24,931 nucleotides of DNA from Elusimicrobiota bacterium (GTDB lineage: Bacteria; Elusimicrobiota; Elusimicrobia; UBA1565; JACRDR01), in NCBI GenBank assembly GCA_041694815.1, contig JBGFSC010000031.1:1-24931 (forward strand), given 5' to 3'. Below are positions 3,065 through 24,809 of the stretch, one piece after another. The notes below the pieces were generated by a model. The model saw only the letters and a list, made by a program, of their open reading frames with translations. It was not told the DNA's origin and made no database searches. Each line of letters starts with the position of its first letter. The first letter of the stretch is position 1. A program made the translations under genes and the position numbers.

Positions 3065-3751
3065 ATGAAAGCCTGGATAATCGCGTTGCTTACCAATGCC
3101 GTTCTCGCCTCCTCTTATCCTCTAGTCGACGCCGATATTACCGCCTTCGATAGAACGATTACGGAAATGGAGCGCCGCTTTAGCGGTAGGCCCAAAAATG
3201 CTCATGACAAAAAATGGGTCAAGGCCAAGTTATCGCATATGTTTAAAGTCGACCAGCATCTTCGAACATTCGCGATGGAAACGCCTTTAAAGAAATCATA
3301 TTCCGGCGAAGAAAAACGGTACTTCTGGGAGAAATTAGGGCCTCGTTGGAAAATGATCGATCATCGAAACACGACGGACTTAAAGGAGCTGCTGGCGGTC
3401 TACGGATGGATTAAGATTAGCGAATTCGGGGAGGAAGCCGACAATGCGGCCTGGCTGCTGGTCCAACACGCCGATGACGATCTCGCTTTTCAAAAAGAGA
3501 CGCTTATAAAGTTAGCGGCGCTCTATCCCGCGGGTGAAACAAAGCCATCCCACTATGCCTATCTCTACGATAGAGTGGCCATTCATGAAAATCGGCCGCA
3601 GCTATACGGCACTCAAGGGCGATGCGTCGCCGGAACTTGGGAGCCTTTCCCGATCGACAGTCCCGGGGAAGTCGATGAACGCCGCAAGGCGATGGGGCTG
3701 GAACCGCTTTTAGAATATAAGCAACGCTTTCAGGGCGCCTGCGATAGCTAG
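3065..3751 (+). CDS. Secreted hypothetical protein, last gene of the paralog operon
   Basis: ATG is immediately after the TAA of paralog 5. Signal peptide MKAWIIALLTNAVLASS. Contains blocks such as AWLLVQHADDDLAFQKE and YAYLYDRVAIHENRPQLYGTQ; I could not assign a family. Its stop overlaps the convergent mazF stop. Confidence 0.7.
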   Translation: MKAWIIALLTNAVLASSYPLVDADITAFDRTITEMERRFSGRPKNAHDKKWVKAKLSHMFKVDQHLRTFAMETPLKKSYSGEEKRYFWEKLGPRWKMIDHRNTTDLKELLAVYGWIKISEFGEEADNAAWLLVQHADDDLAFQKETLIKLAALYPAGETKPSHYAYLYDRVAIHENRPQLYGTQGRCVAGTWEPFPIDSPGEVDERRKAMGLEPLLEYKQRFQGACDS

Positions 3752-4098
3752 ACGCCGCGCGGATTCAACAACACCAGGAGCTTCTCGATGACTTCCCCTA
3801 AGATCGCCTCTGAAACCCTGCAACAAAACCGGGAATCCCTGGCTTGCCAATCCAAGCTCCTGACCTGATCGGCGAGCGCGACGCCGGAAACCCTCAAGCC
3901 CGGAGGCAATGAAACCTCAAAAGGGTAACCCTTCACCTGGCTTGTAATCGGGCAAAAGATCGCAAGTCCGACCTTTCGATTATACCCTTCGGGAGAAAGC
4001 GTCAGAGCCGGCCTATGGCCAGCCTGCTCGTGCCCCGCTTGAGAAGCAAAGGAAAGCCAAACGACATCGCCGCGTTTCGGGCAATACGGCTGCGGCAT
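3748..4098 (-). CDS. mazF: MazF/PemK-family endoribonuclease toxin
   Basis: The 116 aa product aligns along its length with E. coli MazF: GDVVWLSF..GHEQAGHRPALTLSP, GLAIFCPITSQVKGYPFEV, GVALADQVRSLDWQAR. Confidence 0.85.
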   Translation of the reverse strand: MPQPYCPKRGDVVWLSFASQAGHEQAGHRPALTLSPEGYNRKVGLAIFCPITSQVKGYPFEVSLPPGLRVSGVALADQVRSLDWQARDSRFCCRVSEAILGEVIEKLLVLLNPRGV

Positions 4099-4341
4099 TC
4101 ACCAGGTCTCTTGTCCGGCCCTGCGACCCCAATCCTGTTCGTCGTGACGATTCTTCCGGGTGACGCCTTTGAGCATTCTTGAAAGCGAGTACCTTCGTTC
4201 ACCCTTTGGTTTTACGACGATCTTTCCCTCCACGACGGCCACCTCGACCACCGTGCCCTGATGCAGGCGCACATCTTTGGCAAGCGAGCTTGGGATACGG
4301 AGGGCCAGGCTATTTCCCCATCTTTGAACGGTCGCATTCAT
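4099..4341 (-). CDS. mazE: MazE antitoxin (AbrB/SpoVT swapped-hairpin family)
   Basis: 80 aa. VQRWGNSLALRIPSSLAKDV...GKIVVKP...DWG..W mirrors E. coli MazE (VKRWGNSPAVRIP...IDWGEP..VW). Lies directly upstream of mazF on the same strand. Confidence 0.8.
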   Translation of the reverse strand: MNATVQRWGNSLALRIPSSLAKDVRLHQGTVVEVAVVEGKIVVKPKGERRYSLSRMLKGVTRKNRHDEQDWGRRAGQETW

Positions 4342-4369
4342 GGCAGGCTCCCCAGGAGTATCTACAATG

Positions 4370-4397
4370 AGTATACCTCATTATCCGCAGATGTCAA
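4370..4397 (-). promoter_or_regulatory. Putative mazEF promoter: TTGACA-N16-TATACT with GAGTAT direct repeats
   Basis: The minus strand reads cTCTTGACAtctgcggataatgaggTATACTcattgtagatactcctGGGGAGcctgccATG. The -35 is perfect, the -10 near consensus, and a GGGGAG SD lies 7 nt before the mazE ATG. Confidence 0.5.
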
Positions 4398-4427
4398 GAG
4401 CTTGATTCCTTAACGAGCCCCAACTCG

Positions 4428-4853
4428 TCAACCGCCACCCTTAAGCGGCAAAGCCCTAAGTCGAACAAGCTTCCCCAAATGCTCGAATTCCGGATCCTTA
4501 TGCACCAGCGTGGCGCCTAGTCGCTCAGCGGTCGCAGCGACCCAAGCATCGGCTACGGAAAGCTTATGCCCGGCCTTTATTCGCGCGGCCGCAAGCCCTA
4601 ATGGCTCGTCGCTCTCAACGGTCTCAACGGGAAGCTGCTTGAGCTCGAGTATGCCTTGGCGAGCCGCCGTCTCGCCCTGCTCCTGCTCGAGAACATAGGC
4701 GAACTCCATGATCGACATGAAACTAATAAAGACCCGCCCGTTCTTCCCTTCTCGCCTAAGGATCAACTCCACTTCGGCGGCGCCGGGCTCGTTCTCTTTC
4801 AGGCAGAGCAAAGCCGACGTATCCAGAACGAAGGTTTCAACGGCGGGAGGCAT
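4428..4853 (-). CDS. vapC: PIN-domain ribonuclease toxin (VapC-like)
   Basis: 141 aa beginning FVLDTSALL, with acidic PIN residues spaced as in VapC. The start overlaps the upstream small antitoxin gene by 17 nt. Confidence 0.8.
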   Translation of the reverse strand: MPPAVETFVLDTSALLCLKENEPGAAEVELILRREGKNGRVFISFMSIMEFAYVLEQEQGETAARQGILELKQLPVETVESDEPLGLAAARIKAGHKLSVADAWVAATAERLGATLVHKDPEFEHLGKLVRLRALPLKGGG

Positions 4854-5061
4854 CTTCCCTACGGCTAGCCAACAAGGCCTTTGTTAAGCCCTTGGGAGCC
4901 GATCCGCGGAACGCGGAAATAGGGTCTTTGGCTACCGGGAGCACGTAGATCACCTTACCATCCTCCGCCCACTCCAGGCGCTGATGCGCCTTGAGCTTGA
5001 AGCGCTTGCGGATTCGGGCCGGTATCGCCGTCTGTCCCCGCTCGCTGAGTGTAGTCACCAT
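4837..5061 (-). CDS. vapB: AbrB/MazE/SpoVT-type antitoxin (VapB-like)
   Basis: 74 aa. SERGQTAIPARIRKRFKL is a swapped-hairpin DNA-binding N-terminus. Directly precedes and overlaps vapC. Confidence 0.7.
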   Translation of the reverse strand: MVTTLSERGQTAIPARIRKRFKLKAHQRLEWAEDGKVIYVLPVAKDPISAFRGSAPKGLTKALLASRREDASRR

Positions 5062-5067
5062 AAGCCT

Positions 5068-5096
5068 AGTATAACAGTCGTCCGGAACCGCGTCAA
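5068..5096 (-). promoter_or_regulatory. Putative vapBC promoter TTGACG-N17-TATACT; transcript predicted leaderless
   Basis: The minus strand reads ctacTTGACGcggttccggacgactgtTATACTaggcttATG. Only 6 nt separate the -10 from the vapB ATG. Confidence 0.5.
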
Positions 5097-5153
5097 GTAG
5101 TTTTCAATAAATTACATGTAAATAATAAATATTGGCATGCGGGCACAGTGATT

Positions 5154-5205
5154 GCGTTTCTGCGGATTTTACTTCCAACGTTGGAAGTAAAATTAACAGA
5201 AACGC
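5154..5205. repeat. Nested AT-rich palindrome: 26-bp perfect palindrome TTTTACTTCCAACGTTGGAAGTAAAA (5167..5192) flanked by GCGTTTCTG / CAGAAACGC arms
   Basis: Read directly from the sequence. It sits in the AT-rich gap between the small ORF downstream of valS and the vapBC promoter, at the GC-content transition. Confidence 0.6.
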
Positions 5206-5207
5206 AT

Positions 5208-5378
5208 CTAGGCGCAGCGCCCGCAGCCCTGCGGCGGGCAGGAGGGACCCGGCTCAAAATCCTTAGCGCCTCCGCCTTTCTTTAATCCTGGAACCTTGTC
5301 CGAGACCTTGACCACCTTGCCGAGCTTCTTGTCGAAAACATAGGTTCCCGTCGCCTCGTCCTTCGTATTGGTCGCCAT
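5208..5378 (-). CDS. Small hypothetical protein (56 aa) with C-terminal C-x4-C-x2-C motif, coupled to the valS stop
   Basis: Not in the ORF track (under 60 aa). The minus strand reads TGA(valS stop)cGAGGTGGatATG, an SD 5 nt upstream and a 10-nt gap from valS. Translation: MATNTKDEATGTYVFDKKLGKVVKVSDKVPGLKKGGGAKDFEPGPSCPPQGCGRCA. Lys-rich host-like codon usage (AAG, GAC, GTC, CTC), unlike the R/P/G-rich frame artefacts. Confidence 0.45.
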   Translation of the reverse strand: MATNTKDEATGTYVFDKKLGKVVKVSDKVPGLKKGGGAKDFEPGPSCPPQGCGRCA

Positions 5379-5388
5379 ATCCACCTCG

Positions 5389-8085
5389 TCAATTCAAGCT
5401 GCTTAAAATTTCGCGCAGGCGGCTCTGCTTCTGCTCGAAATCGGCCTGGCGGCGGCGTATCGTCTCCACCTCCGCCTGCGGCGCGCGGGAGACGAAGGCC
5501 TCGTTCGACAATTGATTCTTGCACCGGGCCAATTGGGCGTCGATCTCCCGGGCTTCCTTCTCGAGCCTCGCGCGCTCCTTGTCGAAGTCGATCAAGCCCT
5601 CGAGCGGCACGTAGAAGGTCAGGCCCGCCGCCAAGGCCGTCGCGCTGCGCGCGGGCTTGGCCCCTTCGGCCTCCGACAGGCTTTCGAGCCGCGCCAAATA
5701 TTTTAAATAGGGAGCGTGCTCGAGCACAAGCCCCCCGCGGTCCTTGGGGCCCTCGAAATGCGCCTGGATCTTGAGTCCCGGCGGCACGTTCAGCTGCGAA
5801 CGCAGGGTGCGCAGGGCCACGACCGCTTCCATCACCGCCTCCATCCTGGAAACGTTCTCGCCGTCCTGCCAATCCCTTTCCAAAACGGGGCCGCCAGACT
5901 GGATGAGGAAATCATGCGACTGGCCGGCGAAGGCCTTAAGGGAGGCGTATAACTCCTCCGTGATGAACGGCATGAAGGGGTGCAGCATCTTGAGCGTTCC
6001 CACCAGGACCTCGACCAGGATGGCGCGGGCGGCTTCCTTTTCCTCCCCATCAATGCCGGTCAGCCGAATCTTGGCCAACTCCACGTACCAGTCGCAAAAG
6101 CTGTCCCAAAGGAAGCCGTAAAGCGTATCGGCGGCCGCGGCGAATTCATGCGCGTCCATGTTCTCGCGCACCCGGGCGAGCATACCCTGGTACTGCGCCA
6201 AGACCCATCGATCAGCCAACTCCAGGCAGCAGTGGGACAAAGACTCCAGGCGATAACCGCCTGCCGGCGGCGCCGCCGGCAGATTCATGAGCACGAAGCG
6301 CGTCGAGTTCCAGAGCTTGTTGGCGAAATTGCGCGGGCCGGTGATGGAGTCCTCGGCGAAGGGGATGTCCCGGCCCGGATGGGCCTGCGACAGCAGCGAG
6401 AATCGGAAAGCGTCGGTGCCGTATTTGTCCATCATCACCAAGGGGTCGACGACGTTGCCGAGAGACTTGGACATCTTCTTTCCGGCCTTGTCGCGCACGA
6501 TGCCATGGATGATCCCCGTCGAGAAGGGAACCCCGCCCATGAGCTCCAACCCCATCATCTGCATGCGCGCGACCCAGAGGTAGAGTATCTCGTAGCCGGT
6601 CACCAGGGCCGAGGTCGGGTAAAAATACTCCAGGTCTTTCGTCTTCTCCGGCCAGCCGAACACCGAAAAGGGCCACAGGGCCGAGGAGAACCACGTGTCG
6701 AGCACGTCGGGGTCCTGAAGCAGCGAGGTCCCGCCGCAATCGGGGCATCGTTGGGGCTTTTCCGCGCCGGGGATCCCTTTCAGGTCCGCGGCCTGATGGA
6801 AATCCTTCTCGCTTATTCCAGGATTGCACGAGACGCAATACCAGACGGGAATGCGATGCCCCCACCAGATCTGACGCGAGATGCACCAGTCGCGGATCTC
6901 CTGTAGCCATCGGCGGTACGGGTTCCTCCAGCTCTCCGGAAAAAGCCTGAAATCGCCGCGATCCAGGGCGCGGACGGCCGGCTCGGCCAGCTTGGGCATC
7001 TTCACGAACCACTGCCACGACACGAGCGGCTCGATGGCCTGGTTGCAGCGGTAGCAGACGCCGACGGCGTGTGGGTGCTCCTCGGTCTTCTCGAGGAATC
7101 CCCCGTCGCGCAAGTCCGCGGCCACCTTGTCGCGGGCCTGCTCGCGGGAAAGGCCTGAGTATCCTTCTCCGGCGTCCGCGGTCATCTTCCCGTCGGGACC
7201 GATCACCTTGATGGAAGGCAGCGAGTGCCGCTGCCCGATCTCGAAGTCATTGGGGTCATGGGCCGGGGTCACCTTCACCGCGCCGGTCCCGAAGGAGGGG
7301 TCCACGTGCTCGTCCGCCTTGACGGGGATCGTTCGCCCCGTCAGCGGGAGCTTAAGCGTCTTGCCGACCAGGGCGGCATAGCGAGAATCCTTGGGATTGA
7401 CCGCCACCGCCGTGTCGCCGAGCATCGTCTCGGGACGGGTCGTGGCCACCACCAGTCCCCGGCCGCCGTCGGCCGACGGATAATGGATATGCCAGAGCTT
7501 CCCTTTGCGCTCCTCGTATTCCACCTCGATGTCGGAAAGCGCGGTGCCGCAGCGCACGCACCAGTTGACCATGCGCTCGCCCCGGTAGATGAGCCCCTTT
7601 TCCCAAAGATGCTTGAAGGCGGCCAATACCGCCCGCGCGCGGGGCTCGTCCATGGTGAAGGCCTCGCGATCCCAGTCCAGGGCGCAGCCGAGCCGCTCGA
7701 GCTGCCCCAGGATCGTGCTCTTGCAGGCCAGGGTCCACTCGCGCATGCGCTCCAAAAATTTCTCCCGGCCCAGAGCCTGCCTCGAGCCCTTCTCCGCGCG
7801 CAGCTGCTTCTCCATGACGTTCTGCGTCGCGATGCCGCCGTGGTCGGTGCCCGGGACCCAACAGACCGCATCGCCGTTTAACCGCCGCCAGCGGACCATC
7901 AAGTCCTGGAGGGCGTTGTTGAGGGCATGGCCGATATGCAGCGCGCCCGTCACGTTCGGCGGAGGGATGACCACGACGAAGGGCCGCGCCTCGGCGGAGG
8001 GCTCGGCGTGGAAGAGCCGCGCCCGCCTCCAGGCCGAGACCCATTTCGCCTCGACGGGCCCGGGATTGTAAACCTTCTCTAGCAT
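5389..8085 (-). CDS. valS: Valine--tRNA ligase
   Basis: N-terminus MLEKVYNPGPVEAKW. Class I HIGH motif PPPNVTGALHIGHAL. KMSKS motif (GKKMSKSLGN). Editing domain. C-terminal coiled coil (EAREIDAQLARCKNQLSNEAFVSRAP). The track ORF continues 38 aa upstream to 8199 as R/P-rich text; the ATG at 8085 was chosen. Confidence 0.9.
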   Translation of the reverse strand: MLEKVYNPGPVEAKWVSAWRRARLFHAEPSAEARPFVVVIPPPNVTGALHIGHALNNALQDLMVRWRRLNGDAVCWVPGTDHGGIATQNVMEKQLRAEKGSRQALGREKFLERMREWTLACKSTILGQLERLGCALDWDREAFTMDEPRARAVLAAFKHLWEKGLIYRGERMVNWCVRCGTALSDIEVEYEERKGKLWHIHYPSADGGRGLVVATTRPETMLGDTAVAVNPKDSRYAALVGKTLKLPLTGRTIPVKADEHVDPSFGTGAVKVTPAHDPNDFEIGQRHSLPSIKVIGPDGKMTADAGEGYSGLSREQARDKVAADLRDGGFLEKTEEHPHAVGVCYRCNQAIEPLVSWQWFVKMPKLAEPAVRALDRGDFRLFPESWRNPYRRWLQEIRDWCISRQIWWGHRIPVWYCVSCNPGISEKDFHQAADLKGIPGAEKPQRCPDCGGTSLLQDPDVLDTWFSSALWPFSVFGWPEKTKDLEYFYPTSALVTGYEILYLWVARMQMMGLELMGGVPFSTGIIHGIVRDKAGKKMSKSLGNVVDPLVMMDKYGTDAFRFSLLSQAHPGRDIPFAEDSITGPRNFANKLWNSTRFVLMNLPAAPPAGGYRLESLSHCCLELADRWVLAQYQGMLARVRENMDAHEFAAAADTLYGFLWDSFCDWYVELAKIRLTGIDGEEKEAARAILVEVLVGTLKMLHPFMPFITEELYASLKAFAGQSHDFLIQSGGPVLERDWQDGENVSRMEAVMEAVVALRTLRSQLNVPPGLKIQAHFEGPKDRGGLVLEHAPYLKYLARLESLSEAEGAKPARSATALAAGLTFYVPLEGLIDFDKERARLEKEAREIDAQLARCKNQLSNEAFVSRAPQAEVETIRRRQADFEQKQSRLREILSSLN

Positions 8086-8092
8086 GCTAACC

Positions 8093-8216
8093 GGCGACGA
8101 CCCCGGGCATTGCTTCCGTCGGAACGCGCGGCCTTTGGGGCCGCGCTCTGTCCTCGGCGGCTTTGGGGTGCGCCGCCTGCGGAGGTCCTCCTCCAGCAAT
8201 GCCCAGGGTCGTCGCC
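8093..8216 (-). promoter_or_regulatory. Structured valS leader: 21-bp long-range inverted repeat (8093..8113 / 8196..8216) enclosing further GC hairpins
   Basis: GGCGACGACCCCGGGCATTGC pairs with GCAATGCCCAGGGTCGTCGCC, 20 of 21 Watson-Crick plus one G-U in the mRNA sense. The 3' arm ends 7 nt before the valS ATG. Internal hairpins: GCGCGGCC-TTTGG-GGCCGCGC and GGAGGTCCTCC. Confidence 0.4.
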
Positions 8217-8220
8217 AATC

Positions 8221-9519
8221 TCACAAAAGCTCAGACGCCAGGGCCGCCAGCGGGCTGCGCTCGATCTTGGAGAAGGTCACGTGCCCGAACAGGGGCTGGC
8301 CCTTGAAATGCTCCACCAGGTTGGTGAGCCCGTTGGAGGCGGCGTCCAGGTAATAATTGTCGATCTGATAGGGATCGCCGGTCAAGACGATCTTCGAGCC
8401 CTGCCCGACGCGCGAGATGATGGTCTTGATCTCGTGCGGCGTCAGGTTCTGGGCGTCGTCGATGATGATGTATTGGTTGGGCAGCGTGCGGCCGCGCAAA
8501 AATGTCACGGCCTCGATCTCGATCTTCTTCTGCTCGACGAGCATCTGGATGCTCATCTCGCTTTCCTCGGAATGGGGCCGGTCCATGAGAAACTCGAGGT
8601 TGTCGTAGATGGCTCCCATCCAGCTCTCGAGCTTCTCCTGCTTGGATCCGGGCAAGAACCCGATGTCGTGGCCCACCGCGATCACCGGCCGGGCGATGAG
8701 CATGCGGCGGTAGAGCTTCTCCTCGAGTATCTGCTCGAGGCCCGCGGCCAAGGCCATGAGCGTCTTGCCCGAACCGGGGACCCCGACCAAGGTGACGAGC
8801 TGCACCTCCTTGCGCATCAAAAGCTCCAGGGCGAAGCGCTGCTCGGTGTTGAGCGGCTTGATGCCCCACGGCACGGTGTCGGCCTTCGTTAACGGCACCA
8901 GGGAGCCCAGCTTCTGGTCGTAGCGGGTCAAAGCGGACTTGGAGCCGCCGTCGTTGTCCTTGAGGATCACGAATTCGTTGGGCTTAAGCCCTCCCTCGTT
9001 GACCGCCAGGCGCCGGGTCTTGTAGAAGGAGTCGATCTCGCCCGGGGGCGCGCCCACCTCCTGCCAGCCGCGGTAGAGGTCGGTCACGTCGACCTTTTCC
9101 CTCTCGTAGTCCTGCGTGTCGAGCCCGATGGCCTCGGCCTTGATGCGCAGGTTGATGTCCTTGGAGATGAAAACGATCTTGTCGCCCTCTTTCTTGAGCT
9201 GCTGCGCGACGGCGAGGATCATGTTGTCCTTGCTATGGGACAGGAAGGTCGGCGGCAGGCCGTTGCCGCTCACCATCTCGACCTTGAGAGTGCCCCCATG
9301 CTCCAGGATAACCCCGTCCGATAATTTCCCCTTGGACCTCAGGCCGTCGAGCTTGCGGGCCACCAGCCGCGCCGCGCGGCCGCGCTCGTCGTTGTTGCGC
9401 TTGAAGGTATCGAGCTCCTCGATGACGGGCAACGGCAGCACCACCTTCGAGCCCTCGAAGGCGAAGATGGCGTTGGGGTCGTGGATGACGACGTTGGTGT
9501 CGAGCACGAAGGTTTTCAC
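8221..9519 (-). CDS. PhoH-like ATPase with N-terminal PIN domain (PhoH2/YlaK type)
   Basis: GTG start preceded by GGGAGG-N5 gives MKTFVLDTNVVIHDP, a PIN N-terminus. Walker A GVPGSGKT. PhoH C-terminal block IIIDDAQNLTPHEIKTIISRVGQGSKIVLTGDPYQID. The track ORF extends 213 codons upstream into hemW as GC-frame artefact. Confidence 0.85.
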   Translation of the reverse strand: MKTFVLDTNVVIHDPNAIFAFEGSKVVLPLPVIEELDTFKRNNDERGRAARLVARKLDGLRSKGKLSDGVILEHGGTLKVEMVSGNGLPPTFLSHSKDNMILAVAQQLKKEGDKIVFISKDINLRIKAEAIGLDTQDYEREKVDVTDLYRGWQEVGAPPGEIDSFYKTRRLAVNEGGLKPNEFVILKDNDGGSKSALTRYDQKLGSLVPLTKADTVPWGIKPLNTEQRFALELLMRKEVQLVTLVGVPGSGKTLMALAAGLEQILEEKLYRRMLIARPVIAVGHDIGFLPGSKQEKLESWMGAIYDNLEFLMDRPHSEESEMSIQMLVEQKKIEIEAVTFLRGRTLPNQYIIIDDAQNLTPHEIKTIISRVGQGSKIVLTGDPYQIDNYYLDAASNGLTNLVEHFKGQPLFGHVTFSKIERSPLAALASELL

Positions 9520-9568
9520 GGTTGCCTCCCACAGCGATCGACGCAACCATTTCCTCGAATATTCTCGG

Positions 9569-10672
9569 TCATTGCACGAACTCCTCGAAGACGCGGTTGG
9601 CGAGGTAGAGCCCTTCCCCCGCGAGCTTGACGGTGTCATCCTGCTTGGCGATCCAACCCCGCCGCAAGAGCCGCGCCCATTGCGGCTCGAAGGCTTCCCA
9701 CATCTCGGGCGTGAGCGCCATCCCGTCGATCTGCCGGAGGCCGAGCAGGACGGTCTCGCCCATGCGCCGCAGGGGCGAGAGGGACTCGGACTCGAGGACG
9801 GCGCTCCGGCCCGATTCGATGGCGGCGCAATAGGCCTCCAGGCGGTCCAAGTTCTGCGTGCGCTGGCCGTCCAAATAAGAGGAGGCCCCGCACCCCAGGC
9901 CCAGGTATTCCTCGTTGCGCCAGTAGATCCGGTTGTGGATCGACTCGAAACCGGGCCTGGCGAAATTGGATATCTCGTAATGGTGGTAGCCCAGCGCCTT
10001 GAGCCGCTCGATGGAGCCCTCGAACATATCGCGCACCAGGTCTTCGTCGACCTGGAAGCCGCGCCTGGCCAGTAGTGTGCGGTCCTCGACTTGCAGGCAA
10101 TAAAGCGAGAGATGATCGCAATCGAGCGACAAGACGGACTCCAAGCTGCGCCGGGCATCCTGGGGGCTCTGCCCCGGAAGGCCGACCATAAGGTCGACGT
10201 TCACGGCGAAGCCTCGGGCCTTCGCTGCGGCGTAGACCCTACAGAAATCCTCCCAGCCGTGCCGGCGGCCCAGCGAGCGCAACAGCCGGTCATCGGCGCT
10301 CTGGAGCCCCAGGCTCAAGCGGCCGACGCCGCGACTGCGCAACACGTCCATCTTTTCCTCGCTCAAGCTCTCGGGATTGGCCTCGAAGGTCGATTCGAGA
10401 AAGCCCTCGACGGGGCCGAAGAGCTCCTCGACGCTGCACAAGAGCTCGTCCATCTCTTCAGCCGAGAGTTCGCTCGGCGTGCCCCCGCCCACATAGAGCG
10501 TGTCCACCGGCCTATGGCGCGAGCGCGATTCCGCCGCCAGCGCCCGGAGGTAGCGCCCCGTCCGGTTCCGCTGCCCCGCGAAAGCCGTGAAATCGCAATA
10601 GAAGCACTTGATGGAGCAAAACGGGACGTGGATGTAGAGTCCTCGCAGACCCACGTCGCGGGGCGCGCTCAA
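9569..10672 (-). CDS. hemW: Radical SAM heme chaperone HemW (HemN-like, oxygen-independent coproporphyrinogen oxidase family)
   Basis: [17 protein letters not shown] carries the CxxxCxxC radical SAM motif in the HemW context. GGGTPS. C-terminal HemN_C-like domain. TTG at 10672 overlaps the SPFH stop (TTGA). An alternative GTG at 10654 gives [13 protein letters not shown]. Confidence 0.8.
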
Positions 10673-15159: not shown

Positions 15160-15227
15160 CGCGAAATACTCGCGAAGATGGTGCCAGGGATTGACTTTCG
15201 CCTAGGCGAAAGTCAATCCCTGGCACC
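15160..15227. repeat. Intergenic mosaic repeat, locus 2: module D, CTCGCGAAGAT linker, 48-bp perfect palindrome B
   Basis: B is GGTGCCAGGGATTGACTTTCGCCTAGGCGAAAGTCAATCCCTGGCACC at 15180..15227, an exact self reverse complement centred on CCTAGG, identical at 24718..24765. The linker recurs inverted at 24766..24776. Confidence 0.75.
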
Positions 15228-24672: not shown

Positions 24673-24809
24673 CTTTTACGCGCCTCGGGCGCGTGGCTCG
24701 GCGCGCTTTGTTTTCGCGGTGCCAGGGATTGACTTTCGCCTAGGCGAAAGTCAATCCCTGGCACCATCTTCGCGAGAAACCTCGAACTCGTCGCGCGAAG
24801 CGCGACGAG
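24673..24809. repeat. Intergenic mosaic repeat, locus 3: inverted hairpin C, palindrome B, inverted CTCGCGAAGAT linker, AACCTCGAA, hairpin A
   Basis: CTTTTACGCGCCTCGGGCGCGT at 24673..24694 is the reverse complement of 11523..11544. B is at 24718..24765. ATCTTCGCGAG is at 24766..24776. AACCTCGAA is at 24778..24786. Hairpin A is at 24787..24809. Confidence 0.75.
24689..24714 (+). terminator. Possible weak intrinsic terminator after purH
   Basis: GCGCG-tggctcgg-CGCGC stem directly followed by TTTGTTTT. Short stem with an 8-nt loop, so weak. Confidence 0.3.

What the first reader, a model, noticed from the sequence alone, without database searches (positions are those of the whole stretch)
5208..5378. 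Unannotated 56-codon ORF translationally coupled to valS, ending in C-x4-C-x2-C
On the minus strand an excellent SD (GAGGTGG) 5 nt before an ATG sits 10 nt after the valS stop. It opens a 56-codon frame with ordinary, Lys-rich composition and host-like GC3. The ORF is missing from the supplied track only because it is under 60 aa. The product is MATNTKDEATGTYVFDKKLGKVVKVSDKVPGLKKGGGAKDFEPGPSCPPQGCGRCA. The C-terminal SCPPQGCGRC has three Cys after a Gly-rich linker, suggesting a small metal-binding or redox protein. A leader-plus-core modified peptide is also possible, though no dedicated maturase is adjacent. The Cys codons coincide with a GC-rich imperfect hairpin at 5219..5236.
Basis: seen in the sequence. 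Interest (0 to 1): 0.6.

Follow-up and report, generated by a model that had tools for sequence, protein, structure and literature searches.

The report
Conserved Elusimicrobia small Cys-triad protein

Summary

**It is a real gene.**
- The large protein collection holds 218 clusters of homologs. Every one that carries a name is an Elusimicrobia/Elusimicrobiota "hypothetical protein".
- 54 species-level genomes encode it.
- Over the conserved core, pN/pS is about 0.18, with synonymous sites near saturation.

**What is conserved.**
- A beta-hairpin, TGxYxYDxxLGxVVKVS (residues 10-26; AlphaFold pLDDT 80-90).

**Closest relatives.** They sit in the same PhoH-valS-ORF position. They carry an extra N-terminal CxxC…CxxC ribbon that scores just below threshold against the FmdB / Zn_ribbon_8 models. 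The window's copy is a ribbon-less form.

**What is not supported.**
- The hairpin at 5219..5236 is no better than chance (z = -0.48) and its pairing is not conserved.
- No maturase or other protein partner is conserved next to the gene, which argues against a modified-peptide precursor.

**Verdict.** Metal binding by the Cys triad is the best guess but is untested. This is a real, uncharacterised, lineage-specific small protein of moderate interest.

The parts
5208..5378 (-). Small protein gene: 56 codons plus a TAG stop. Product: MATNTKDEATGTYVFDKKLGKVVKVSDKVPGLKKGGGAKDFEPGPSCPPQGCGRCA
   Evidence: Searches give the sequence and translation. Core pN/pS is 0.18. GC3 is 0.75 in frame against 0.57 and 0.50 out of frame.
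5381..5387 (-). Shine-Dalgarno sequence GAGGTGG. It starts 1 nt after the valS stop and ends 2 nt before the ATG (5 nt from the GAGG core).
   Evidence: Read directly from the sequence. Flagged as SD-like.
5389..8199 (-). valS (valyl-tRNA synthetase), the upstream gene to which the small gene is coupled. Its stop TGA is at 5391..5389. The true start is probably near 8085 rather than the TTG at 8199.
   Evidence: Pfam tRNA-synt_1, Anticodon_1 and Val_tRNA-synt_C. It is 68% identical to valS of L010 and L065, both of which are followed by the homologous small gene. The alignment to L065 starts at window residue 37.
5301..5351 (-). Codons for residues 10-26, TGTYVFDKKLGKVVKVS: the conserved beta-hairpin module.
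   Evidence: Invariant T10 G11 Y13 L19 G20 V23 K24 V25 S26 in A1. G11 Y13 D16 V23 S26 are at least 90% conserved in A3. AlphaFold2 gives strands 12-16 and 21-26 with pLDDT 80-90.
5214..5240 (-). Codons for C47-x4-C52-x2-C55: the conserved cysteine triad, a putative metal site. The chance-level GC-rich hairpin lies within it.
   Evidence: C47, C52 and C55 are at least 90% conserved among 79 diverse members. 210 of 232 members have at least 3 Cys in the tail. The hairpin has z = -0.48 and its pairing is not conserved in L010 or L065.
5153..5206 (.). 54-nt near-perfect palindrome starting 2 nt after the stop codon. It probably marks the 3' end of the valS/small-gene transcript (a stem-loop without a T-run).
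   Evidence: Arms 5153-5179 and 5180-5206 are 89% complementary. The RNA fold is -37.5 kcal/mol with z = -9.0. It occurs once in the window. It fails the terminator pattern for lack of a T-run. It is absent downstream of the gene in L010 and L065. There is no Rfam match.
5068..5096 (-). Boundary feature: promoter-like site TTGACG-17-TATACT for the next unit (the AbrB/MazE-like antitoxin plus PIN toxin). It shows that the small gene is the last gene of the valS unit.
   Evidence: One search gives 10 of 12 matches, with TG before the -10 box. The downstream genes were identified.

Best explanation
The frame encodes a real 56-aa, basic, cytoplasmic small protein. It belongs to an uncharacterised family that has so far been seen only in Elusimicrobiota.

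Shown:
- The protein has three parts: an N-terminal beta-hairpin (residues 10-26, TGxYxYDxxLGxVVKVS), a flexible Gly/Lys-rich linker, and a C-terminal triad of cysteines (C47, C52, C55) that is conserved across the family.
- Its nearest relatives occupy the same place after valS. They carry an additional N-terminal CxxC…CxxC ribbon that resembles the FmdB / Zn_ribbon_8 family, so the window's gene is a ribbon-less form.

Inferred:
- It is translated from the valS mRNA by re-initiation or coupling at the SD that begins 1 nt after the valS stop.
- The transcript ends at the 54-nt stem-loop after its stop codon.
- The Cys triad binds a metal ion: Zn, a soft metal or an Fe-S cluster. With only three thiolates, the site is probably completed by a second copy of the protein or by a partner.
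- The invariant hairpin is the surface that docks onto that partner.

The cellular role is not known.
For: Reality of the gene:
- 40 homologs with a single-sequence query.
- 105 representatives at the 50% level with a profile.
- 218 clusters at E <= 1e-4, all named ones from Elusimicrobia.
- 54 species genomes.
- pS 0.66 against pN 0.12 over 26 core codons in 43 distinct DNA sequences.
- An in-frame GC3 excess.

Architecture:
- Conserved columns.
- The hairpin is predicted at pLDDT 80-90 and the tail is unstructured.
- 90% of members have at least 3 tail Cys. The commonest spacings are C-x4-C-x4-C, C-x8-C-x2-CC and C-x4-C-x2-C, and 108 tails also contain His.

FmdB link:
- Ribbon-bearing relatives such as P0003 and P0109 share the same CPPQGCG tail.
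- Their top hit is PF09723 / TIGR02605, at E from 1e-6 to 1e-4, and many carry a precomputed PF09723 annotation.

Synteny and coupling:
- L010 has valS (68% identical) followed by an ATGA overlap.
- L065 and L066 have PhoH, a response regulator, valS and the ORF with a 4-nt overlap.
- The window has PhoH, valS and the ORF.

Transcript end.
Against: - There is no experimental evidence of expression, metal binding or any phenotype for any member.
- The window's tail has only three Cys and no His, which is one ligand short of a classical tetrahedral Zn site.
- About 7% of family members (17 of 232) have tails with no Cys at all, so the hairpin can function without the triad.
- The FmdB-like ribbon hits are all below the curated thresholds (23-29 bits against 34.4; 16-28 bits against 31.3).
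- Homology between the hairpin and the region after the ribbon in canonical FmdB proteins was not tested.
- The loci used for pN/pS were retrieved with the peptide pattern [YF]DKKLGKV, which lies inside the core, so that number is biased towards conservation. The independent profile search is not.
- The palindrome lacks a T-run and is not conserved in relatives, so its role as a transcript end is an inference.
Confidence: 0.6

Rival explanations
1. It is a ribosomally synthesised, post-translationally modified peptide precursor. The conserved hairpin would be the leader recognised by a maturase, and the variable Cys-rich tail would be the core, modified by an enzyme encoded elsewhere in the genome.
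For: A strongly conserved N-terminal part with a variable Cys-rich C-terminal part is the typical layout of such precursors. Radical SAM genes lie within a few kb in some loci: L004/L055 and L067.
Against: - No maturase-type gene is conserved next to the small gene. The immediate neighbours are tRNA-Arg, ThiF, M32 peptidase, Ppnp, valS, BacA or others, depending on lineage.
- The L004 radical SAM gene is found in only 4 of about 65 loci.
- The window has none within the genes scanned.
- Each fetched locus holds a single copy, embedded among housekeeping genes.
- There is no hit to any peptide-precursor model in NCBIfam or Pfam.
- The positions of the three Cys are conserved as in a binding site, not as in a hypervariable core.
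Confidence: 0.1
2. It is a thiol-disulfide redox protein or redox sensor rather than a metal binder. The Cys triad would cycle between thiol and disulfide states.
For: The Cys are conserved. For the related FmdB family, Sec-containing CxxU variants led Zhang and Gladyshev to propose a thiol-related redox function (PMC2398784).
Against: - That proposal concerns the ribbon's CxxC motif, which the window protein lacks.
- The tail is Gly/Pro-rich and predicted to be unstructured, unlike known redox folds.
- His frequently accompanies the Cys in relatives' tails (108 of 232), which is more typical of metal sites.
Confidence: 0.15
3. It is a translation-linked factor, for example a ribosome-, tRNA- or synthetase-associated small protein. 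Its gene placement would reflect its function.
For: - In most Elusimicrobiales loci the gene lies directly downstream of tRNA-Arg(GCG) on the same strand.
- In several of those loci the ATG is only 6-8 nt after the encoded CCA end.
- In the window's clade the gene is coupled to valS.
- The protein is small, basic (pI 9.2) and Cys-bearing, like several zinc-binding ribosomal proteins (established knowledge, not tested here).
Against: - The argument rests on gene neighbourhood only.
- A third clade has unrelated neighbours: an unknown 253-aa gene and BacA. L067 and L068 have yet other neighbours.
- There is no similarity to any ribosomal protein model or to any solved structure.
Confidence: 0.1
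4. It is not a gene. The frame is a chance ORF, and the region is just the valS 3' untranslated region with its terminator hairpin.
For: The ORF is short. The region is GC-rich and can form a hairpin.
Against: - Hundreds of homologous ORFs with conserved peptide motifs occur in different genomic contexts and at different GC contents.
- Synonymous sites are saturated while non-synonymous change is low.
- The hairpin is at chance level, and its pairing differs in L010 and L065.
- No terminator pattern was found.
Confidence: 0.02

Closest known systems
FmdB family zinc-ribbon proteins (Pfam PF09723 Zn_ribbon_8; NCBIfam TIGR02605 CxxC_CxxC_SSSS; COG2331)
   Same: Both are small bacterial proteins of unknown function with a degenerate Gly/Ser/Cys-rich C-terminal region. 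The window protein's nearest relatives (P0003, P0109, P0152 and others) have an N-terminal CxxC…CxxC ribbon whose best database match is this family. They share the hairpin and the CPPQGCG tail with the window protein.
   Different: The window protein has no ribbon at all and gives no hit to the family models. Even the ribbon-bearing relatives score below the curated cut-offs. The hairpin TGxYxYDxxLGxVVKVS and the Cys triad are not part of the FmdB models. Whether the hairpin corresponds to the region that follows the ribbon in canonical FmdB proteins is a recollection only and was not tested.
SCIFF / ranthipeptide-type Cys-rich peptide precursors (for example NCBIfam TIGR03973; named from established knowledge)
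   Same: Both are short (45-60 aa), lineage-wide conserved peptides with a conserved N-terminal part and several Cys near the C-terminus.
   Different: Those precursors are defined by an adjacent radical SAM/SPASM maturase. No such neighbour is conserved here. There is no sequence match to peptide-precursor models.
Cys/His-rich metal-binding tails of metallochaperones, such as the C-terminal tail of E. coli SlyD (recalled from the literature, not tested)
   Same: Both have unstructured Gly/Cys/His-rich C-terminal segments, such as …CNGCCGH, …GGGCGCGG and …CGGCCGCCHGHND in relatives.
   Different: The resemblance is in composition only. The window's tail has three Cys and no His. There is no chaperone domain attached and no hydrogenase or urease context.
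Generic zinc ribbons (archaeal RNA polymerase subunit P/Rpo12, rubredoxin)
   Same: The ribbon of the relatives aligns weakly to them (E = 1e-4 to 2e-3).
   Different: This concerns only the part that the window protein lacks. Nothing solved matches the hairpin or the tail.

Membership tests
FmdB family / Zn_ribbon_8 (PF09723, TIGR02605) | An N-terminal pair of CxxC motifs about 17 residues apart (the zinc ribbon) | tested here: not met
   The window protein has no Cys before residue 47. The ribbon is present only in relatives such as P0003 and P0109.
FmdB family / Zn_ribbon_8 (PF09723, TIGR02605) | A score above the curated cut-off of the family models | tested here: not met
   The window protein has no hit even at E <= 0.1-1. 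Ribbon-bearing relatives score 17-29 bits against 34.4 (Pfam) and 16-28 bits against 31.3 (NCBIfam), which is their top hit but below threshold.
FmdB family / Zn_ribbon_8 (PF09723, TIGR02605) | A degenerate, low-complexity C-terminal region | tested here: met
   A Gly/Lys-rich linker and a variable Gly/Cys/His tail are seen across the family.
Unnamed Elusimicrobiota hairpin-plus-Cys-triad small-protein family (defined here) | The hairpin motif T-G-x-Y-x-[YF]-D-x-x-L-G-x-V-V-K-V-S near the N-terminus | tested here: met
   Window residues 10-26 match every invariant column of A1 and the columns conserved at 90% or more in A3.
Unnamed Elusimicrobiota hairpin-plus-Cys-triad small-protein family (defined here) | Three conserved Cys in the C-terminal tail | tested here: met
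   C47, C52 and C55 align to the Cys columns conserved at 90% or more. The C-x4-C-x2-C spacing is shared by 19 other members.
Unnamed Elusimicrobiota hairpin-plus-Cys-triad small-protein family (defined here) | Occurrence in Elusimicrobiota genomes | tested here: inconclusive
It shares PhoH-valS-ORF synteny and 68% valS identity with an Elusimicrobia MAG. All named family members are Elusimicrobia, apart from three loci in bins labelled Muribaculaceae, Spirochaetes or just 'bacterium'.
Modified-peptide (RiPP) precursors of the SCIFF / ranthipeptide type | A dedicated maturase (radical SAM/SPASM or other) encoded next to the precursor | tested here: not met
   Gene tables and tblastn of about 65 loci show no conserved enzyme neighbour. 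The window's neighbours are valS and toxin-antitoxin pairs.
Modified-peptide (RiPP) precursors of the SCIFF / ranthipeptide type | Covalent modification of the core Cys residues | not testable with these tools
   This needs mass spectrometry of the native peptide.
Intrinsic (rho-independent) terminator, for the hairpin at 5219..5236 | A stable GC-rich stem followed by a T-run, more stable than composition predicts | tested here: not met
   z = -0.48 against shuffles. No terminator-like site was found in 4800..5600. The pairing is not conserved.

The most novel reading that the evidence does not exclude
The family is a phylum-specific component or accessory of the translation apparatus in Elusimicrobiota: a small basic metal-binding protein that docks through its hairpin onto the ribosome, a tRNA or an aminoacyl-tRNA synthetase. 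That would explain why its gene is kept directly behind tRNA-Arg(GCG) in most lineages (in some the ATG is 6-8 nt after the CCA end) and is translationally coupled to valS in the window's lineage.
Probability: 0.1. Interest if true: 0.7.

Novelty: new variant of a known kind. Interest (0 to 1): 0.4.

Why it matters
Small proteins under 60-70 aa are routinely missed or left as 'hypothetical'. This one is kept under strong protein-level selection across a whole, poorly studied phylum. No curated family model covers it.

It gives a compact, testable object: a 17-residue invariant hairpin plus a three-cysteine site. It also gives a natural series of variants, with and without a zinc ribbon and with different tails.

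If the Cys triad binds metal, or the hairpin docks on a core machine, the family would add a lineage-specific component to Elusimicrobia physiology. It might also shed light on the equally uncharacterised FmdB family. If not, it remains one more conserved hypothetical small protein.

Tried and rejected
- **Curated family libraries.** Pfam, NCBIfam, PHROGs and PADLOC scans of the peptide gave no family.
- **Solved structures.** A PDB sequence search with the family profile gave only insignificant hits. The best was a hairpin in methyl-coenzyme M reductase gamma at E = 0.31. With the ribbon-bearing profile, only generic zinc ribbons matched.
- **RNA families.** An Rfam scan of 4900..5500 gave only sub-threshold miRNA-hairpin matches on the palindrome.
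As a functional RNA or terminator it is rejected: z = -0.48, no T-run, pairing not conserved.
- **Exact look-up of the window protein's contig** found nothing.
- **Cluster look-up** gave no names or accessions.
- **Phage link.** tblastn of a non-Cys-tail member (P0139) against phage genomes found no match.
- **ThiF/MoeB or Moco partner.** This was considered because ThiF follows the gene in several loci and some tails end in GG. It was rejected because the adjacency is confined to one clade, is often interrupted (by M32 or Ppnp, or ThiF is absent), and the C-termini are not consistently GG.
- **Fold search.** Not run, because outside the 17-residue hairpin the models have low confidence.
- **Literature.** Searches found no description of this family and no established function for FmdB.

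Full report
**Observation.**
On the minus strand, valS ends with TGA at 5391..5389. GAGGTGG lies at 5387..5381, an ATG at 5378, and a TAG at 5210..5208. The product is basic (9 Lys, pI 9.2). GC3 is 0.75 in this frame against 0.57 and 0.50 in the other two frames of the same stretch, and valS has GC3 0.85. So the description is accurate.

The GC-rich hairpin inside the Cys codons folds at -14.9 kcal/mol. However, 57 of 200 dinucleotide-preserving shuffles fold at least as well (z = -0.48). It is what Cys, Gly and Pro codons give in a 63% GC genome.

**Is it a gene?**
- The peptide has no Pfam or NCBIfam family.
- A single-sequence search of the 5.8-billion-protein collection found 40 homologs of about 60-65 aa, with E down to 1e-9. 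The named ones are 'hypothetical protein' from Elusimicrobia MAGs.
- Their alignment shows invariant T10 G11 Y13 L19 G20 V23 K24 V25 S26, followed by a variable Gly/Cys/His-rich tail.
- An exhaustive profile search of 1.84 billion representatives found 105 clusters at the 50% level with E <= 1e-3.
- A search with a diverse 79-sequence alignment found 218 clusters at the 90% level with E <= 1e-4. Again, all named ones are Elusimicrobia/Elusimicrobiota, and none has a Pfam domain.
- A scan of species-representative genomes found the gene in 54 genomes. Nearly all are labelled Elusimicrobia. Three bins are labelled Muribaculaceae, Spirochaetes or just 'bacterium', and they carry the same sequence type as gut Elusimicrobiaceae.
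- Over 26 core codons in 43 distinct DNA sequences, pS = 0.66 (near saturation) and pN = 0.12, a ratio of 0.18. The caveat is that these loci were retrieved with a peptide pattern inside the core, which inflates conservation. The profile search is free of that bias.

In the closest relatives the peptide CPPxGCGxC is kept, while the predicted RNA pairings differ.

**Anatomy of the protein.**
- In the 79-member alignment, the columns conserved in at least 90% are G11 (invariant), Y13, D16, V23, S26, C47, C52 and C55.
The commonest spacings are C-x4-C-x4-C (35), C-x8-C-x2-CC (24) and the window's C-x4-C-x2-C (19). His is present in 108 tails, and 17 members have no Cys in the tail.
- AlphaFold2 with the family alignments predicts only a beta-hairpin (strands 12-16 and 21-26). 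Its pLDDT is about 90 and 80 for the two ten-residue blocks. The rest is unstructured.
- No solved structure is related.

**Relatives with a zinc ribbon.**
Some members are 89-109 aa and begin with a CxxC…CxxC segment (P0003, P0096, P0101, P0109, P0124, P0140, P0141 and others). That segment's best match in both Pfam and NCBIfam is the FmdB family: PF09723 Zn_ribbon_8 at 17-29 bits against a cut-off of 34.4, and TIGR02605 at 16-28 bits against 31.3. Many carry a precomputed PF09723 hit.

The ribbon-bearing proteins closest to the window (P0003, P0109, P0150, P0151, P0154) share its tail PSCPPQGCG[RG]C. There are also other ribbon-less proteins with that tail (P0048, P0062). The window protein is therefore a ribbon-less form of an FmdB-like small protein. 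It does not itself meet the defining features of the FmdB family.

FmdB proteins have no established function. The literature offers only a proposed thiol-redox role based on CxxU selenoprotein variants (PMC2398784) and a Tn-seq indication that the CxxC domain is essential in Burkholderia cenocepacia (PMC8770471).

**Genomic context.**
- *The window's clade.* The gene follows valS. In L010, valS is 68% identical and the small gene starts with an ATGA overlap. In L065 and L066 (an Elusimicrobia MAG, valS 68% identical) the order is PhoH, response regulator, valS, small gene, with a 4-nt overlap. The window has PhoH-PIN, valS, small gene. Coupling to valS is thus conserved in this clade, and the window's SD plus 10-nt spacing fits it.
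- *The main Elusimicrobiales clade.* The order is UDP-glucose dehydrogenase, histidine kinase, tRNA-Arg(GCG), small gene, and then variously ThiF, an M32 peptidase, Ppnp or a convergent gene.
- *A third clade.* An unknown 253-288-aa gene lies upstream and BacA downstream. L067 and L068 differ again.

No protein-coding neighbour is constant, and no maturase-type enzyme recurs. This is the main argument against a modified-peptide precursor. The window has only valS upstream and toxin-antitoxin pairs downstream, and the rest of it is ordinary housekeeping (ispG, the rib operon, nusB, ligA, purH).

**End of the unit.**
Two nucleotides after the stop codon lies a 54-nt near-perfect palindrome (5153..5206). 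It is 89% complementary, folds at -37.5 kcal/mol with z = -9.0, and occurs once in the window. It has no T-run and is absent from the relatives. It is followed by a good promoter-like site, TTGACG-17-TATACT at 5096..5068, for the downstream AbrB-like/PIN pair. I infer that it marks the 3' end of the valS/small-gene transcript. That is not shown.

**Mechanism.**
Shown: the gene is under purifying selection on the protein, with a hairpin module and a conserved Cys triad.

Inferred: the triad binds a metal, and the hairpin is a docking surface. Three conserved thiolates, frequent accompanying His, a flexible Gly-rich context and kinship with zinc-ribbon proteins make metal binding the most economical reading. 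With only three ligands in the window's copy, the site may need a second protomer or a partner. I put about 0.95 on 'real conserved protein', about 0.5 on 'metal-binding triad', and 0.6 on the explanation taken as a whole.

Rivals:
- A thiol-redox role, 0.15.
- A modified-peptide precursor with an unlinked maturase, 0.1.
- A translation-linked factor, suggested by the tRNA-Arg and valS neighbourhoods, 0.1.
- A non-coding chance ORF, 0.02.

**Novelty and interest.**
Members of the family already sit in databases as unnamed hypothetical proteins. No curated model, structure or paper covers them. The family is best described as a new, ribbon-less and lineage-restricted variant of the FmdB-like small Cys proteins. 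A specialist would find a phylum-wide conserved microprotein worth a follow-up, but not startling. Interest is about 0.4.

Noticed in passing
window 5153-5206: A 54-nt near-perfect palindrome lies immediately after the small gene's stop codon (-37.5 kcal/mol, z = -9). It is AT-richer than its surroundings, has no T-run, occurs once in the window and is absent from relatives. It could be a transcript-end stem-loop, an operator, or a remnant of the insertion that brought the toxin-antitoxin genes.
   Followed up: partly
window 15180-15227 and 24718-24765: Two identical 48-nt perfect palindromes (GGTGCCAGGGATTGACTTTCGCCT / AGGCGAAAGTCAATCCCTGGCACC) lie 9.5 kb apart, each just downstream of a plus-strand gene. 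The flanks are unrelated, so this looks like a REP-like dispersed palindromic element.
   Followed up: partly
L028, L047, L054, L060, L064 (about 4976-4983); tRNA coordinates: In several Elusimicrobiales genomes the small gene's ATG lies only 6-8 nt after the encoded 3' CCA end of tRNA-Arg(GCG). In most other loci of that clade the tRNA is 30-180 nt upstream on the same strand. This suggests a tRNA-mRNA co-transcript whose tRNA processing releases a nearly leaderless mRNA.
   Followed up: partly
L030, L033, L044, L053, L057-L059 (upstream of about 5001): In gut Elusimicrobiaceae the gene has no Shine-Dalgarno sequence but has a TATAAT box 6 nt before the ATG (aactgcTATAATaacagtATG). This suggests a leaderless transcript. 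Overall only 18 of 55 distinct upstream regions have an SD-like motif.
   Followed up: no
window 3748-5061 (minus strand): Two type II toxin-antitoxin pairs lie back to back downstream of the small gene: an AbrB/MazE-like antitoxin (4837-5061) with a PIN toxin (4428-4853), and MazE (4099-4341) with MazF/PemK (3748-4098). They are absent at this position in L010 and L065.
   Followed up: no
window 8085-8199 (valS 5' end): The mechanical ORF for valS starts at a TTG at 8199 (936 aa). The alignment to the 908-aa valS of L065 begins at window residue 37, and an in-frame Met follows at residue 39. The true start is probably near 8085, which leaves a longer gap to the upstream PhoH-PIN gene (8221-10158).
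   Followed up: no
proteins P0119, P0121, P0126, P0128, P0132, P0134, P0139, P0143, P0144: Some profile hits have the N-terminal hairpin motif fused to longer tails without Cys (for example …VWFPKSGVGYFDKPLQTRF…). The hairpin therefore seems to be a module used with other C-terminal parts. There was no match in phage genomes or PHROGs, and their origin is unknown.
   Followed up: partly
L004, L012, L026, L041 and proteins P0036, P0038, P0045: One tail class carries Gly-Met repeats and ends in an aromatic/acidic terminus (…CGMGGMGGMGGGFGGGF, …GGFDGDF, …GGGEF). From memory it resembles the GGM tail of GroEL and acidic-aromatic docking tails. No test was made.
   Followed up: no
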